DNA of 63,829 nucleotides, filler included, from Rhabdomonas costata (lineage: Eukaryota): assembly GCA_019059605.1 (NCBI GenBank). It is 46 parts of 46 records of this genome, joined end to end, with 100 filler letters (N's around TTAATTAATTAA, not from the genome) between each part and the next. Parts side by side here need not be neighbours in the genome. Positions count along the whole stretch, not along the records: positions 15,268 to 16,559 come from JAHMHO010020466.1; 45 more parts are not named here. One strand, 5' to 3'. This document shows positions 1,780-26,398 of this stretch, piece after piece; the first letter of the stretch is position 1; the number at the start of each line of letters is the position of its first letter. Made by a program: the position numbers and the translations under genes. The notes beneath the pieces were generated by a model. That model saw only the letters and a program-made list of their open reading frames with translations, was not told where the DNA came from and did no database searches.

Positions 1780-2210
1780 AATTATGGCTGCGGATTGGTA
1801 AGCTATCAACTCAGTTGTGCACGTTAAGGAGCCAGTCGAGAGTGAGAAGGCAGGAGTATGTGAACACTACGTTCTTCCTCAGCGACTTGTGCGCAGTTCA
1901 GGAGTTATGAATCATGTTCAGGAGAAAGTTTTGGTTTTTCAATTTTGGCTTGAAAATAGCCCCTTTAAACAGCTGTTGCGGTCAGATGGGGCTCATTTTT
2001 GACTTTTGGGACAGAGATTGAAAGAGAGCGCCGTTAAAAAATGTTGATCTTTGTGGCAAATGACGTGTGTACTACGGAGACTATGTTGAAAAGAGTGCGC
2101 AAATGGGAGATTAGTGTGAAGAAGAGTTTAGCTTGGATTCTAGCATTGGAGCAGTGCGAATCCTATGGGTTATAGAAGATGTATTGAGAGCAGACCATTG
2201 CCTCTTTGTT
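1780..2210 (+). mobile_element. Highly degenerate RNase H-like remnant, possibly from a non-LTR retrotransposon
   Basis: Broken-frame peptides in the expected RNase H order: YGCGL, a decayed AEL-like segment, PLKNVDL, AWIL, RADH; many stops and frameshifts. Confidence 0.35.
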
Positions 2211-4514
2211 CACCTTGCCGTTTGAAAAAATGGCCCATATGAGGACGTATTTTTGGAGAATTTTAAAGAACATACACATCAACACATCAACTCTTGCTTT
2301 TTTGTCAATGGTTGTGTGATAGAAGCAGGTAATATTCCTGTATTCGTCTGCTTCAGACGCTTTGTGAGTTTTGATGTGGTGAATCAGTTATTATTTCAGC
2401 AGTTGCCATTAAAGCAAGTGGCCAAATGTGACTGGTTAACTGTGAGAGATCTTGTGGGGTTTGTTGGTAGGCTTGGGACAATTCATGTCAAGTTGTTTCT
2501 GAGATTACTACAAGCCAGGCAGTCTGACTTGTCCCCCCCTTTTTTTCCGCGCCAGAATTTTTCGGGCAGTTCCTCTCTTAGATTTGATTTGTCAACAGCC
2601 TTAGTGTGCTGGACCCGCCAGCCGCTGTCTGTTTTTCTCATTCAGAGGCCGAGGTCAAGGCCCAAGCGCTCCACACACAACCNNNNNNNNNNNNNNNNNN
2701 NNNNNNNNNNNNNNNNNNNNNNNNNNTTAATTAATTAANNNNNNNNNNNNNNNNNNNNNNNNNNNNNNNNNNNNNNNNNNNNTCTGCCTTTGGAAAAAGA
2801 GGGGGCGCGAGTTGAGGGCTGAAGGAGCGGGTCACCTTCTGTACCATAGCATTTGCTGTTAAACTGACTGAAGAAGGGCAGAGTAACTTTTTTTGGTATG
2901 CTGGTACCCCTTTTGGTGTCTTTTGGTGCTTGCTGGGCGAGCATCTGGGAGACGGACAGAGTTGCCCTGAGGTGCAGCTAGAGAGAAAGAATGTGTGTAT
3001 GTGTGATTGAGTGAGAACCGAACCAGAAAAGCGGGCCAGCTCCTTTCACTGACATCCTGTCCAAAGGTTTACGTTTTGCTGTGCCTTTTTCAGTACTTCA
3101 GTGGCCAACCAGGCAGTATAAGTGTCGCAACCCATTGGTGAGTCTTTGGGCAACCTGGAGGAAAGTTTAATCCAAACCAAAACCTCAAAGGGCAATTCCT
3201 CAGGCAGTCTGACGACACCCTCTCCACCCCACAGCTGTTCACCTGTGGTTTGGACGAGAGCTGCGGCTGTGAACGTGCAATGCAGCGAAGTGTTGTTTTT
3301 ATATTACCGTTATATTACCGTATTTTCGTAACCGCAACTTTAAGGTCCAGCCAGAAAAAACTCTCACTTTTTGCGGTCATGTGGGCAATATAAGGAGGGG
3401 GCAATGGCGGAGGGTGTAGTCTCCTTTGATAAGGAGAAAATGAGATTAAATGGGCTCGCGTGGGCGGTCGCCGCAGCGGCGCATCAGTTCTGTGTCTCCC
3501 GACCGATGCCTGCTGGCTTCCTTCGCCGCTTTTTCTCGACACACCGTGTGAGTTGGAATCCTCCTGCTACTGGATGCCTGTTTGGAGTATGCTCTTTCGC
3601 TGTCCCTCGCCCCCTTTTTTCCAAGAGATCATCACCGAAAGCGTAGAAAAGTGATGTCACAGCACGGGTGAATGAGTTCACATCAAAGAAGAAACAATGT
3701 CGAGCAAACCACCCCACAAGCGAGTTCCTGTGACTCCGGATGAGCCCACAAGAGAGAAAAATGGAGGGGTCCGCAACGAGGGGCGGAGAGGTTCCAGCAG
3801 GACCAGCTCCGGCGAGGATTGCTGTTGTGCACGACGTGTGTCGGACTCTCTAACCTTAGCTGCCCTCTTTTACTCCTCTGCCACAGGTTACGATTTCTCA
3901 CTGGCTCCCACATTGCCTGTCCGCACTAGTCATGGGATGCTCTTTGGGCTGTTGCATCACCCTCCTTCTTCCCTTCCCATTGTCATTGCAACAACAACCT
4001 GCTCGCCGATGATAAAGGCGCCCTGGAAGGGTCCGCACCGAAGCTCTTCTCTTTCAGCCGCTCCCCACACACCNNNNNNNNNNNNNNNNNNNNNNNNNNN
4101 NNNNNNNNNNNNNNNNNTTAATTAATTAANNNNNNNNNNNNNNNNNNNNNNNNNNNNNNNNNNNNNNNNNNNNGGGGGGTTGTGGATCCACGTGAAGTCC
4201 GTCAAGAACTCGTCCGTGGTAGATGGCCTCAATACGACGGAGCATACCTCGTGAGTGTTTTCCAGCTCCTCAAATCTCTGACGAGAGAGCCTTCGACACA
4301 CCATCGCAAACAGGAACCCTGCCGAGTTCTTCCCACTCTTCCGAGCCGCCTTGTGGAGTCCCGGAGTTTTCTCTTCGGGAAATACCGGTTCACTTGGAAA
4401 AATCTTCCAAAGTTTAAAAATGCGTAGTTTGTGCGTTTGGGTGGACTCAGCTCTCCATCCCACTCTCCACTACTTCTTTTGAATATGAGGGTGCCGGGGT
4501 GGCTTTCTTCACAG

Positions 4515-15000: not shown

Positions 15001-15267
15001 GAGAGGTTAAAATGTCTAGAATTGTAACAATACAGTTGAACGTTTGGCACCCTCACCTGCCCGCGAAGAAAACAACAGCTCCCCTTGCACTGACAGTGCT
15101 GGTATTTGCTTTTTCTTCGCGGGCAGGTGAGGGTGCCAAACGTTCAACTGTATTGTTACAACCCCCCNNNNNNNNNNNNNNNNNNNNNNNNNNNNNNNNN
15201 NNNNNNNNNNNTTAATTAATTAANNNNNNNNNNNNNNNNNNNNNNNNNNNNNNNNNNNNNNNNNNNN

Positions 15268-16200
15268 AGGGAGGCATCGACGACATCAACATCTTTTACC
15301 CCTAGAGGCTCATCGTCGCTCCCCACCATTTAAGGTGGTTCGCTCCTCTCCTCTTCACTCTTCTTCTTTCTTCACTCCTTAGGGCCCCCACGAACGCAGT
15401 GAGTGGGGTATCTGTAGAAGGTGAATGCATGTAAGCGGCTTATGCCGGTGGAATGCATGAACCATCACTTCTAGGAGGAAGGATACGAACGCAGTGAGCA
15501 TCCTGACGACCAGCTATCTACTCCACTCTGTCGGCATGCCCCTCGGTCCCTCGGGTCAGCCTCCCCTCTTCTTCTTTCTTCACTCCCAGGGCCCCACGAA
15601 CGCAGTGAGTGGGGTATCTGTAGAAGGTGAATGCATGTAAGCGGCTTATGCCGGTGGAATGCATGAACCATCACTTCTAGGAGGAGATGCGAACGCAGTG
15701 AGCATCGACGACATCAAGAACCTTAGGGGCCCCCACGAAACGCAGTGAAGTGGGGATTGCAGGAGGAGCGCAGCGACGACGTAAAGAAGTAGGAGGGACG
15801 AAACGCAGTGAGGACCGACAGGAAGAAGAAGGAAGGATGGCCGAAGCGTAGCGTAGGACATCCTGACGTCAAGGAGTGAACGAGCGTAACCGTATGCGGT
15901 GGAGCGAGTGAACCACTGCACTTCGGGAGGAAGGATGCGAGGTATCGAGCATCCTGACGACCAGCTGAATACTCCACTGAACGTCCCTTCGCTCCCCACC
16001 CTAAGGTGGTACGCTACGGTCCTCTCTCCCAACTACGTCTGCTTGGTTCGTTCCACCACCCTAAGGTGCTTTCACTCACCCCTACAACGCATCCATGGTT
16101 CGTTCCACCGGCCTAAGCCGCCTTCACTCACCCATAGAAGAGGTTGATGTTGCATGTCGGGCTCGGCGCCCTCCACTTCGCATCACTCCCTCTGTTGGGG
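15268..16200. repeat. Cluster of short hairpin modules (tandem G.A plus GNA triloop), including a ~120-bp direct repeat (15358-15479 / 15566-15685)
   Basis: CCCCAC-GA-AC-GCA-GT-GA-GTGGGG twice, GATGC-GA-AC-GCA-GT-GA-GCATC, GC-GTA-GC, GC-GCA-GC, CCACC...GGTGG; no exon-intron structure and none of the long A/T homopolymer runs seen in other contigs. Confidence 0.9.
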
Positions 16201-17358
16201 CTGACTTCGGTGGGGCTTTGGCAACCACTACCACAGTGCTACTACGGTACATGTCCTCAAGAGGGCTTACAGAGGGCTGATACACCCTATGCCTCCTGAC
16301 GGCATGTCCACAGCAACCCCTCATAGTGGCATCGACACAACATCCACACGTTGGGCTTATCGGGTTGTTACACCGTTGCCTCTGTGGGACATTACGCCAA
16401 CACCACCAGGCAGCAGTCTATGCCTTAACACAACAACATAGGTGGGCTGATGAGGCTATGACACCTGTGCCACCATGGTTGCTGTGCCAAGACGCACTAC
16501 AACAGGGCATCACCATCACTGGGCTTACAGAGTCGGGATACAACTCCTGCCACCAAGGANNNNNNNNNNNNNNNNNNNNNNNNNNNNNNNNNNNNNNNNN
16601 NNNTTAATTAATTAANNNNNNNNNNNNNNNNNNNNNNNNNNNNNNNNNNNNNNNNNNNNGGGTGTTGTGTCTCCTTCCGGTGTCGGTGTCAGTGTGGCTT
16701 CCTCCTCGCTCTCTTGGTGAGTCGGTGTGTGGCTTCTGTTGGTAGTGCTAGTGGTGGCAGGTATCCCTGGTTCGTGTGTCCGTTTGCCGAAGGAGTTGGT
16801 GCCGGGACTTGTGGTTGCTTATGTGGGTGGGTGATTGGGTTCCGTTTCTCTGTTCGCTGGTCTTGCTGTTGTGGTGTCGCTGTTGCAGTCGCTGGGATTG
16901 GTGTGTGCTGTACTTGCTGTGGGCTTCCTGCTTTCTGTTTCTCTGTGCCTTCTTGTCTCCTTTCCTCCACCAGAGGTGTGAAACCGCCAGACGCCGCTCT
17001 CTAGTTCCATCCGTCGCAGAAGCCGTTGAGATCTGCCCAGCAGTGATCCGAACGTGCATTGTCAGGTACGCCTGGCAATACGGGAACATACGGATAAGGC
17101 CACCAACACCTAGTGAGCTAAGGTCATGTGTGACCGGTGATGCAACGCCACTCAAACACATGCACCGAAGCCGACCATGGCCTAGTGTGCGCCTTCCCTT
17201 TGGGCGCTGTTGCCCTTGTGGGTTTGGGTCCTCCATTCTACTCCGAGCTTAGACGCTTTCCTGGTGGACGCGCTTGGTTACCTTACTCTGTCCCTGCTGT
17301 CATCTGGACCTCACTTCTCTCCACTTGCCCAGTCATCCCTTCATACGCACAGGCGCAC

Positions 17359-25007: not shown

Positions 25008-26170
25008 GGGGTGTGGGTATGACCAACCTATGGTATGCTGCCATGGTAGTTGTTGTATCGCTTGTATGTTGAAGGGTAGGAGTAGAGCGTAAGGGTAGTG
25101 ACAGTGCTACGCTGATCCCTACACCTGATGCTATACCTATTCTATGGTGGTCATGGCAGTGTTGGTACCGACAGTGGTATCAGCATCTAACCCCTGTAGT
25201 GGAATGGGCGTAACACACCCTGTAACACCACGCATAAGGTTAGCATGTTGGTATGCTGATGGTGTCGATGCTGTTATGCCATCCGGTGGTCAGGGCATGG
25301 TTGATCCTGGTAGCGATGATGCCTACCGGTGTGATGCCTGATGGTGGAAGTGCCGTAGTGGAGGTCGCCGAGACCGACATGATGGTATGGATGCCTCAGT
25401 CACTCACACTCACAGCATCAACGCTTCAGAGGAACCATGCTAAGGGTGTCAGGGTGTTGGCTGTCAACCCAACCAAGGGAAGGCAAAGGCGTACGGTATG
25501 CCATGACCGTTACTCCTACGCTAGACCAAGGCTACGCGTTGACAACCACACTCAGGCAAGGTAAGGGCGTAAGGTTGACGCTGATGCAGATGTTGATGCA
25601 TATGCTGATACAGATGCTGATGCTGACACCGAACCCCTCACCTACCCCACAGCATGAACCCTACCCTACCGTAGAAGGAATGATGTGTGTGAAGTGCCAG
25701 GATGATGCCGGTGCTGGTGAGACGATGCCATGCCACCGAGAGCTGAGGCACAGGGGGACTGAGAGGGAGGCATGATCCGACCGAAGGGAGGGGCATGCCG
25801 GTATAGTGATGGTCGCATATCACTCGCTACGCTCGATCGATGCTCCCTCAATGCGTAGTTCGTCGTTCCACCGCTTCACGGCTTCACTCGTTCCGTCCTT
25901 GGCGAAGCCACGCAGAATACCCTCAGTGAGTGAAAGGTCTCACTTTGGGTTCAGCCTTGGCATCTTCCCTTCTCATGCACTTACCCTACACTTGTGGTGT
26001 GGTTCATGCTGAGGTTGGGTTCATGCCTCGTGGTGGATTGGCTCACTGGCCATCGTAAGGTCACCCTCCAACAGCATCAACGCTTGGTCTTACACACCTT
26101 CTACATGTGGTGCCAAGTGTTGACTGTGGCTGGCACACACCCGATGCCCTGTAGCCTCTCACCAGGATCT
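25008..26170. other. Compositionally distinct, intron-less DNA carrying the same G.A-hairpin elements as 15268-16559; possible organellar or extrachromosomal origin
   Basis: Shares three motifs with the 15268-16559 contig (25354-25381, 25763-25800, 25858-25889); degenerate (GATGCT)n near 25580-25626; no recognisable gene. Confidence 0.6.
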
Positions 26171-26398
26171 ACACACAACCATCATCGCGAAACAGGGACC
26201 CCTCTCAGAAGGAAGGCGCACCCAGAGCTCCACTTAAAATTGCAAAGGACAACCATCGCCATGTTCATTCCCCATCAGTTTTTGGTCGAAAAAAAACANN
26301 NNNNNNNNNNNNNNNNNNNNNNNNNNNNNNNNNNNNNNNNNNTTAATTAATTAANNNNNNNNNNNNNNNNNNNNNNNNNNNNNNNNNNNNNNNNNNNN

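What the first reader, a model, noticed from the sequence alone, without database searches (positions are those of the whole stretch)
15268..16200. Dense array of strand-specific DNA hairpins built from tandem G.A pairs and GNA triloops
Seen: one cap, GA-AC-GCA-GT-GA, sits on different stems: CCCCAC/GTGGGG (twice, ~15386 and ~15592), GGATAC/GCATCC (15481) and GATGC/GCATC (15686). A GAA variant occurs at ~15731. GC-GCA-GC and GC-GTA-GC mini-hairpins and CCACC...GGTGG modules are also present. The modules are shuffled, occur on both strands, and one ~120-bp block is duplicated. Established: C-GNA-G triloops and tandem sheared G.A pairs stabilise ssDNA hairpins on one strand only; GC-rich mobile hairpin elements are known from some mitochondrial genomes, and structured single-strand origins from rolling-circle plasmids. 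Inference: this contig is not ordinary nuclear intron DNA and may come from a mitochondrial or extrachromosomal replicon carrying a modular structured-DNA element family.
Basis: partly seen in the sequence, partly recalled or inferred. Interest (0 to 1): 0.75.

Follow-up and report, generated by a model that had tools for sequence, protein, structure and literature searches.

The report
Hairpin arrays bordering euglenid mitochondrial chromosomes
This gene-free stretch is one of many arrays of small G·A-zipped repeats, nearly all on one strand, that directly follow mitochondrial genes and a large family of gene-less blocks in a Euglena relative; it likely folds into single-stranded DNA hairpins that would help start the copying of small mitochondrial molecules.

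Summary
Observation confirmed, except that the caps lie mostly on one strand (7 to 1). The stretch is a 1,292-nt contig of a fragmented euglenid assembly (G000; cox1 closest to Euglena, TAG read as Tyr). The cap occurs 232 times against 13 for the control, its stems co-vary, and three unrelated environmental runs hold pieces of the contig.

It is most likely mitochondrial non-coding DNA. 7 of 88 cap contigs carry a mitochondrial gene piece or the genes' shared 3' box, against 0 of 45 controls. Two 91%-identical contigs run nad4, spacer, array. Depth is roughly 15-25 times the nuclear level.

Added here: many arrays end ~1.2-1.4-kb gene-less cassettes. These start at a box found 184 times (control 0), fall into many classes, share leader motifs with the genes, and show no protein or guide-RNA signal.

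Best mechanism (inferred): single-strand priming or origin region. Topology and the reader protein are unknown. The cap itself is known chemistry and occurs in cycad mitochondrial Bpu repeats. The scan noted these hairpins on other contigs before, once with the same mitochondrial reading. New variant of a known kind.

The parts
15268..16130 (+). Modular hairpin array, caps on +; cut off by the contig start
15386..15408 (+). 6-bp stem + tandem G.A + 2 bp + GCA triloop (copy 1)
15481..15503 (+). Same cap on GGATAC/GCATCC stem (one A.C mismatch)
15592..15614 (+). 6-bp stem + cap (copy 2, in the duplicated block)
15680..15712 (+). Same cap on GATGC/GCATC, extended by two further tandem G.A steps
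15731..15755 (+). GAA/GAA variant of the cap on CCCCAC/GTGGGG
15762..15780 (+). GC-GCA-GC mini-hairpin zipped by two tandem G.A steps
15792..15819 (+). GA-zipped stem with cap variant
15846..15852 (+). GC-GTA-GC mini-hairpin
15925..15962 (+). Long GA-zipped stem (11 Watson-Crick pairs, 3 tandem G.A steps) with a non-GNA tip
15323..15338 (.). CCACC..GGTGG plain hairpin (folds on either strand)
15996..16009 (.). CCACC..GGTGG plain hairpin
15540..15555 (-). GA-zipped stem on the minus strand
16032..16038 (-). The one C-GNA-G cap on the minus strand
16155..16175 (-). GA-zipped stem on the minus strand at the cassette end; a related motif recurs in other cassettes
15369..15479 (+). Duplicated block, first copy (second copy 15575-15685)
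16130..16559 (-). 3' end of a gene-less cassette: 42 matches at 72-100% identity; no codon-phase bias; frameshifting indels. A 75-77% relative (contig C183) has the cassette start box 1,291 nt before its first cap.

Best explanation
The stretch is one of many hairpin arrays in the non-coding DNA next to a euglenid's mitochondrial genes and gene-less cassettes, and it likely acts as a single-stranded origin or priming region of short mitochondrial molecules. Shown: on the GT-rich (coding) strand units read leader, then a gene with a shared 3' box and spacer and/or a ~1.2-1.4-kb gene-less cassette, then the array, whose caps lie on the opposite strand. Array-type modules also occur upstream of some leaders on the coding strand, so caps point into the unit from both sides. 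Stems and inner pairs co-vary. Inferred from known chemistry: when unwound, the cap-bearing strand folds into C-GNA-G triloops zipped by sheared G.A pairs, which the complement cannot form, and these bind SSB poorly and resist nucleases. Inferred and untested: a mitochondrial primase or the T7-like RNA polymerase loads there and primes synthesis, as at plasmid ssiA, phage G4 origins or N4 promoters. Recombination between shared modules would reshuffle arrays and join genes to different cassettes. Odds: mitochondrial location about 0.9; folding as ssDNA about 0.8; priming or origin role about 0.5.
For: Location: 7 of 88 cap-selected contigs hold a mitochondrial gene piece or the 3' box, against 0 of 45 window controls. 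L013 and L073 are 91% identical over 1,472 nt and both run nad4, spacer, array, so the junction is not a one-off chimera (nad4 identity). L143 (nad4, other spacer), L151 and L200 (cox1), L147 (cox3), L068 (nad1-type end) and L096 (cob) do likewise. nad1 (L144) and atp6 (L149) run on into cassettes. One leader motif is shared by cassette units and the cox2, atp6 and cob leaders. Exact-match pieces have depth 302-567 on this contig against 11-50 on the non-array part of C118 in run X1. Folding: outer-stem pairing at positions 1-5 is 0.88, 0.57, 0.54, 0.64, 0.58 in 83 distinct contexts, each above the maximum of 2,000 partner shuffles. Both inner pairs are Watson-Crick in 119 of 205 GA-xy-GNA-uv-GA words on the cap strand against 10 of 56 on the other, with three inner-stem types. 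Polarity is 348 to 32. Array or shoulder modules lie upstream of leaders in L231, L365, L370, L373, L380 and L391 (read by eye). Precedent: mini-hairpins at G4, ssiA and N4 sites, with poor SSB binding (PMC13037366, passages). A T7-like RNA polymerase fragment is in G000.
Against: No call shows an origin, a primer or a bound protein. Computed folding shows no strand preference. Of 30 loci picked by the 3' box, 7 reach caps and 3 of those have caps on the coding strand (L152 and L161 share one junction; L159), so polarity is not absolute. 81 of 88 cap contigs show no gene or box, and caps occur in only 2 of 75 loci picked by gene family, most of them short. Contigs are often chimeric, and depth in amplified DNA is not copy number; X1 may be the source sample. 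The partner shuffles do not control for relatedness of copies, and position 6 shows no excess. The same cap in ~210 metagenome stretches sits mostly among housekeeping genes (2 of 82 neighbours mobile-type; a tRNA in 10 of 60 loci), which fits a dispersed repeat better than an origin. An origin would not obviously need 10-20 shuffled modules.
Confidence: 0.5

Rival explanations
1. The modules are selfish or neutral hairpin repeats of the mitochondrial DNA (like Bpu or double-hairpin elements). They spread and reshuffle by recombination through single-stranded intermediates and do no job for the host.
For: The cycad mitochondrial Bpu consensus contains one of the family's caps exactly (PMC8297867, passages; 38 distinct contexts here). 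Modules are shuffled and duplicated. The cap is dispersed in mostly prokaryote-like contigs on unrelated stems.
Against: Caps keep a fixed place and direction relative to genes and cassettes: 12 of 21 cassette loci with >=1,250 nt have the first opposite-strand cap 962-1,450 nt from the start box. They are not scattered through gene loci.
Confidence: 0.2
2. The arrays are terminal structures of linear molecules with inverted terminal repeats. The cap strand's 5' end folds to protect the end or to resolve end replication.
For: Shared homology extends 3' of the caps but almost never 5' (map of 88 contigs). Modules point inward at both ends. Euglena mtDNA is described as linear fragments with terminal repeats (PMC4700960, passages).
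Against: No common terminal sequence was seen. L019 and L176 have arms on both sides of an array (82-89% inverted similarity). Assembly breaks at repeats would give the same map.
Confidence: 0.15
3. The hairpins are transcription signals on the template strand: N4-type hairpin promoters for antisense RNA, or pause and stop sites for the mitochondrial RNA polymerase.
For: Caps downstream of genes lie on the template strand. N4 vRNAP, a T7-family enzyme, reads GNA-capped hairpins. Antisense transcription is reported in Euglena mitochondria (figure legend). The leader motif recurs inverted just 3' of arrays.
Against: No stranded RNA reads were available. The one RNA run is contigs only.
Confidence: 0.1
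4. The family is nuclear repeat DNA (including mitochondrial insertions) or a separate plasmid, and the gene links are chimeras of amplification.
For: Many contigs join arrays to nuclear-looking DNA. L160 and L162 share a junction from a mitochondrial gene into nuclear-looking sequence. Degenerate cox1 copies exist.
Against: Diverged contigs share gene-to-array junctions. Nuclear-side flanks are almost never shared. No Rep or other Pfam hit above cut-off in 63 cassette frames. No match to 18S loci.
Confidence: 0.05

Closest known systems
DNA mini-hairpins GCGNAGC / C-GNA-G at phage G4 origin, RSF1010 ssiA and N4 promoters (PMC13037366, passages read)
   Same: GNA triloop closed by C-G, with a sheared G.A; GCGCAGC and GCGTAGC are present here; one-strand fold.
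   Different: Here they sit on tandem G.A zippers and variable stems, in arrays of about ten or more modules, in an organelle; no binding protein is known.
Bpu elements of Cycas and Ginkgo mitochondria (PMC8297867, passages read)
   Same: The mitochondrial repeat's consensus holds the cap GA-GC-GTA-GC-GA on a stem.
   Different: Bpu is one near-constant 36-bp unit dispersed in ~500 copies. Here there are many module types, clustered and polarised next to genes and cassettes.
Euglena gracilis mitochondrial DNA (PMC4700960, PMC4806707, PMC8130358; passages read)
   Same: Same gene set found (cox1-3, cob, nad1, nad4, atp6); many variant and degenerate copies; signs of recombination; repeats at unit ends.
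   Different: About 50% GC; TAG=Tyr; shared 3' box; hairpin arrays; a large family of ~1.2-1.4-kb gene-less cassettes. 'hairpin' occurs 0 times in the main text of PMC4700960.
Mitochondrial genes of the osmotrophic euglenid Rhabdomonas costata (PMC8219788, passages read)
   Same: Same code variant (UGA=Trp, UAG=Tyr).
   Different: That paper describes four gene contigs; 'hairpin', 'palindrom', 'non-coding' and 'minicircle' occur 0 times in its main text. Its supplements were not read.
Diplonemid mitochondrial chromosomes (PMC7049700, passages) and Stylonematophyceae minicircles (PMC10250338, passages)
   Same: Unique cassette flanked by shared non-coding regions thought to hold origin and promoter; diplonemids have some empty chromosomes.
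   Different: No near-identical constant region here; genes are whole, not modules; gene-less cassettes are abundant; circularity is unknown.
Kinetoplast minicircles (PMC4806707, passages)
   Same: Many sequence classes of ~1-kb gene-less units beside the gene-bearing DNA.
   Different: No guide-RNA-like complementarity; the genes read open without editing.

Membership tests
DNA mini-hairpin (GCGNAGC / C-GNA-G) | GCGNAGC or C-GNA-G sequence with paired flanks | tested here: met
   15768-15774 and 15846-15852; 7 caps on +; inner-pair covariation. The main cap AC-GCA-GT is a variant.
DNA mini-hairpin (GCGNAGC / C-GNA-G) | Unusual thermal and nuclease stability of one strand | not testable with these tools
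   ViennaRNA gives no strand difference.
Euglenid mitochondrial DNA | Physical linkage to mitochondrial genes | tested here: met
   Met for the family. The focal contig itself holds no gene and is linked through shared modules and its cassette.
Euglenid mitochondrial DNA | Linear molecules with terminal repeats | tested here: inconclusive
   Inward-pointing modules at both ends, but contigs are short and chimeric.
Bpu elements | Core GAGCGTAGCGA | tested here: met
   38 distinct contexts in the family; consensus in PMC8297867. Not exact in the focal contig.
Bpu elements | 36-bp unit with AAGG terminal direct repeats and a Bpu10I site | not tested
   No search for the full unit was run.
Bpu elements | Near-constant unit dispersed singly | tested here: not met
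   Clustered arrays of varied modules; 83 distinct flank pairs for one cap.
Diplonemid-type chromosome | Constant region >90% identical over >100 bp flanking cassettes | tested here: not met
   58 of 76 array tails have no partner at >=85% over 150 nt; leaders share only short motifs.
Diplonemid-type chromosome | Genes split into modules needing trans-splicing | tested here: not met
   cox1 pieces of 180-240 codons read open and overlap.
Kinetoplast minicircle | Encodes guide RNAs complementary to mRNAs | tested here: not met
   24 cassettes against 7,166 nt of coding sequence: longest duplex 19.5 and 18.7 nt, against 19.5 and 19.0 shuffled. The gene set was partial.
Kinetoplast minicircle | Circular, catenated | not testable with these tools
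   No long reads; the runs are contigs.
Rolling-circle plasmid with single-strand origin | Rep gene on the replicon | tested here: not met
   63 cassette frames gave one weak hit below cut-off, while the cob control hit; only chance-level plasmid matches.
Mitochondrial rRNA gene (for the cassette) | Match to rRNA models | tested here: inconclusive
   No Rfam rRNA hit and no E. coli match; very divergent rRNA pieces could be missed.
Double-hairpin elements of fungal mitochondria | Two adjacent hairpins as a mobile unit (recalled; only a search listing seen) | not tested
   No paper read.

The most novel reading that the evidence does not exclude
This euglenid's mitochondrion holds, besides about eight genes, a minicircle-like population of dozens to hundreds of classes of gene-less molecules. 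Each is built as leader, start box, ~1.3-kb cassette and a polarised array of G.A-zipper DNA hairpins. The arrays are phage- or plasmid-style single-strand signals read directly by the mitochondrial primase or T7-like polymerase. That would be a folded-DNA origin in an organelle and a living counterpart of the gene-less mitochondrial DNA from which kinetoplast minicircles could have arisen.
Probability: 0.25. Interest if true: 0.82.

Novelty: new variant of a known kind. Interest (0 to 1): 0.57.

Why it matters
How the fragmented euglenid mitochondrial genome is replicated and kept is open (PMC4700960, discussion passage). This gives testable cis-elements: a polarised hairpin array, a cassette start box, a leader motif and a 3' box shared by the genes. 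It is also comparative evidence, from co-varying stems, that tandem G.A zippers with GNA triloops are under selection in a eukaryote. The many gene-less cassette classes bear on the origin of minicircle-type DNA in Euglenozoa. I found no description of such arrays in euglenid mtDNA in searches or in the passages read; subscription papers such as Spencer and Gray 2011 could not be searched.

Tried and rejected
Rfam on the contig, on 10 loci and on 15 loci: no credible hit. An SSU-like look of one stretch of L075 and LSU-like looks of the cassette rested on recalled motifs, were not supported, and are not claimed. E. coli blastn of the cassette: none. Plasmid blastn of the array: 8 matches at E>=0.8. 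Nuclear rDNA circle: no similarity of 3 SSU loci to 88 cap contigs, and no caps in them; the LSU loci were not compared with the cap contigs. Coding cassette: substitutions even across codon phases with frameshifting indels; 63 of the 84 long frames listed were scanned without a real hit. Guide RNAs: no excess. Cladophorales-type fold-back chromosomes: only 7 of 88 cap contigs have self-inverted arms, against 6 of 45 controls. Link of the cap to mobile genes in prokaryotes: weak (82 of 122 neighbouring frames scanned, 2 mobile-type). RNA folding z-scores of cassettes were mixed (-5.6 to +6.0, 5 cassettes, 12 shuffles each). 5' box and leader-start patterns were too narrow (7 and 2 hits). Transcription: run X4 (RNA) has a 369-nt contig over 16216-16559, but contigs cannot show expression. 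A depth comparison across several window contigs could not be made, so the nuclear baseline is one contig. Paper searches gave nothing useful. L111 and L112 looked bacterial (no G+T skew, no in-frame stops) and gave no hit.

Full report
Context. The window is 46 contigs of about 1.29 kb joined by N linkers. The finding is contig C20466 of G000, an assembly of 97 Mb in 104,289 contigs. Contig ends rich in G/T and A/C, and frequent junctions between unrelated DNA, suggest amplified DNA (my inference), so single junctions are not trusted below.

Observation. All listed hairpins are at the stated places. The cap with <=1 mismatch occurs 6 times in the window, all in this contig, against 0.93 expected. 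The exact 12-mer occurs 232 times in G000 against 13 for the reversed control. C-GNA-G caps are 7 on + and 1 on - here. In 88 whole contigs taken from the first 100 listed hits (132 hits were not listed), other caps lie 348 times on the same strand and 32 times on the opposite strand. ViennaRNA with DNA parameters does not separate the strands, so strand-specific folding rests on sequence comparison and published chemistry.

Covariation. In 83 distinct flank pairs of the fixed cap, Watson-Crick pairing at positions 1-5 is 0.88, 0.57, 0.54, 0.64 and 0.58. Shuffled partners average 0.56, 0.41, 0.36, 0.25 and 0.28, and none of 2,000 shuffles reaches the observed values. Position 6 shows no excess. 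Many of the non-pairs are A.G or G.A, that is, further zipper steps. Among GA-xy-GNA-uv-GA words other than the search word, both inner pairs are Watson-Crick in 119 of 205 on the cap strand and 10 of 56 on the other, with AC/GT, GC/GC and CC/GG types. Relatedness among copies is not controlled.

Real DNA. Three runs from other studies hold pieces with a few differences: X4 (RNA, 16216-16559), X5 (array modules that run on into further caps) and X6. The family is therefore not an amplification artefact.

Host. cox1 has 46 matches, with in-frame TAG at tyrosine positions; its best PDB match is Euglena complex IV (E 1.7e-88). cob, nad1 and nad4 behave alike, and the L146 gene matches Euglena ATP synthase subunit a. 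This code is published for a heterotrophic euglenid (PMC8219788, passages).

Link to mitochondrial genes. 7 of 88 cap contigs carry a gene piece or the 3' box, against 0 of 45 other window contigs. In five the order is gene end or box, spacer, array, with caps opposite the coding strand; L075 and L225 may be chimeric. L013 and L073 are 91% identical over 1,472 nt and share the whole run from nad4 to the array. The 3' box occurs 37 times (control 0) after cox1, cox2, cox3, nad1, nad4 and atp6. Of 30 box loci, 7 reach caps: 4 on the opposite strand and 3 on the same strand, two of the latter sharing one junction. A cob contig also reaches an array. From the gene side, only 2 of 75 loci show a cap, most being short. 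In run X1, exact-match pieces have depth 302-567 on this contig and 11-50 on the non-array part of C118. This is supportive only, because X1 may be the source sample and depth is not copy number. There is no similarity to nuclear SSU loci.

Architecture. Shared homology runs 3' of the caps and almost never 5'. Of 76 array tails, 31 cluster with the focal flank's family and 17 with gene spacers. The focal flank (16130-16559) has 42 matches at 72-100%, no codon-phase bias, and frameshifting indels. A 75-77% relative has a start box 1,291 nt before its first cap. That box occurs 184 times against 0 for the control. In the 31 loci examined the 60 nt upstream are 55-80% G+T, and 30 of them are at or above 63%. 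In 12 of 21 loci with >=1,250 nt downstream, the first opposite-strand cap lies at 962-1,450 nt; four of these 12 are contigs from which I derived the box, eight loci show no such cap, and one has it at 391. 27 cassette starts give 27, 25, 18 and 15 groups at 95, 85, 75 and 65% identity; median aligned identity is 41%, with some collinear blocks. nad1 (L144) and atp6 (L149) contigs run into cassettes. A leader motif is shared by cassette units and the cox2, atp6 and cob leaders, and recurs inverted just 3' of arrays. Array or shoulder modules lie upstream of six leaders on the coding strand (read by eye), and two contigs have arms on both sides of an array. Units are thus bounded by inward-pointing modules, but circles and linear molecules cannot be told apart. 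Cassettes show no Pfam hit above cut-off, no Rfam hit and no guide-like complementarity.

Elsewhere. A 17-nt form of the cap is in about 210 metagenome stretches (estimated; 120 returned), on unrelated stems and with no homology to G000 loci. 10 of 60 loci hold a tRNA, and 2 of 82 neighbouring proteins are mobile-type. The cycad mitochondrial Bpu consensus contains a sister cap (PMC8297867, passages); the lead came from an earlier scan note. The tip is thus a widely reused folded-DNA unit, not a mark of descent.

Mechanism. Published: GNA mini-hairpins are far more stable in DNA than in RNA, resist nucleases, bind SSB poorly, and occur at G4, ssiA and N4 initiation sites (PMC13037366, passages). 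Inferred: the cap strand folds when unwound and marks where priming starts. If unit ends are joined, the two oppositely pointing sets would resemble ssiA and ssiB (their opposite orientation is recalled). A T7-like polymerase fragment is present. I give this about 0.5. The rivals are selfish repeats (0.2), terminal caps (0.15), transcription signals (0.1) and nuclear or plasmid DNA (0.05).

Prior notes. My mitochondrial reading was recorded. The scan had noted these hairpins on at least seven other contigs, once with the same reading, and had noted a shared non-coding arm; two notes argued against a mitochondrial origin for similar contigs. None of the notes displayed mentions the 184-copy start box, but only 8 were shown per look-up.

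Verdict. Real, likely mitochondrial, function inferred. New variant of a known kind; interest 0.57.

Noticed in passing
L143-L169, L024, L127, L132 (3' ends of cox1, cox2, cox3, nad1, nad4, atp6): All end in one ~25-nt box. Intact cox1, cox2, nad4 and atp6 copies read it in the same frame (SYPALHSQ) with no TAA before it and rarely within 100 codons after; nad1 and cox3 copies read it in another frame. With TAG and TGA as sense codons, the stop may be made after transcription (cleavage plus A-tailing, or editing).
   Followed up: partly
L146:513-1331: Mitochondrial atp6 (match to Euglena subunit a, E 1e-15; no Pfam hit). It was not among the four genes completed in PMC8219788.
   Followed up: yes
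window 25008-26298: A second contig of the same family in this window: cassette-end motifs and array modules.
   Followed up: partly
L160 and L162: Two contigs share a junction from the atp6 3' box into nuclear-looking coding sequence: a likely mitochondrial insertion in the nucleus.
   Followed up: no
L145, L148, L024, L165, L169: A conserved non-GT-rich stretch of several hundred bases follows cox1 in several copies; possible structured RNA or cassette.
   Followed up: no
L082:1500-1771 and L228:140-310: A short conserved unit embedded in leader repeats, present twice in L082; unassigned.
   Followed up: no
L238, L254, L296, L352 and similar metagenome loci: A recurring element that starts with a tRNA-end-like sequence and carries up to six caps in a row, in unrelated metagenome contigs.
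   Followed up: partly
window 15022-15161: Perfect 51-nt inverted repeat at the end of the neighbouring contig; probably an amplification fold-back, as at the ends of 6 of 45 control contigs.
   Followed up: no
L111, L112, L359: Standard-code NADH dehydrogenase pieces and a bacterial-type 23S contig suggest bacterial DNA in the assembly.
   Followed up: no
L229:669-1002: Run X2 (kind unknown) has depth about 2,000-3,000 on the cassette part but none on most of the adjacent array, unlike X1 and X3; a weak hint that cassettes are transcribed, if X2 is RNA.
   Followed up: no
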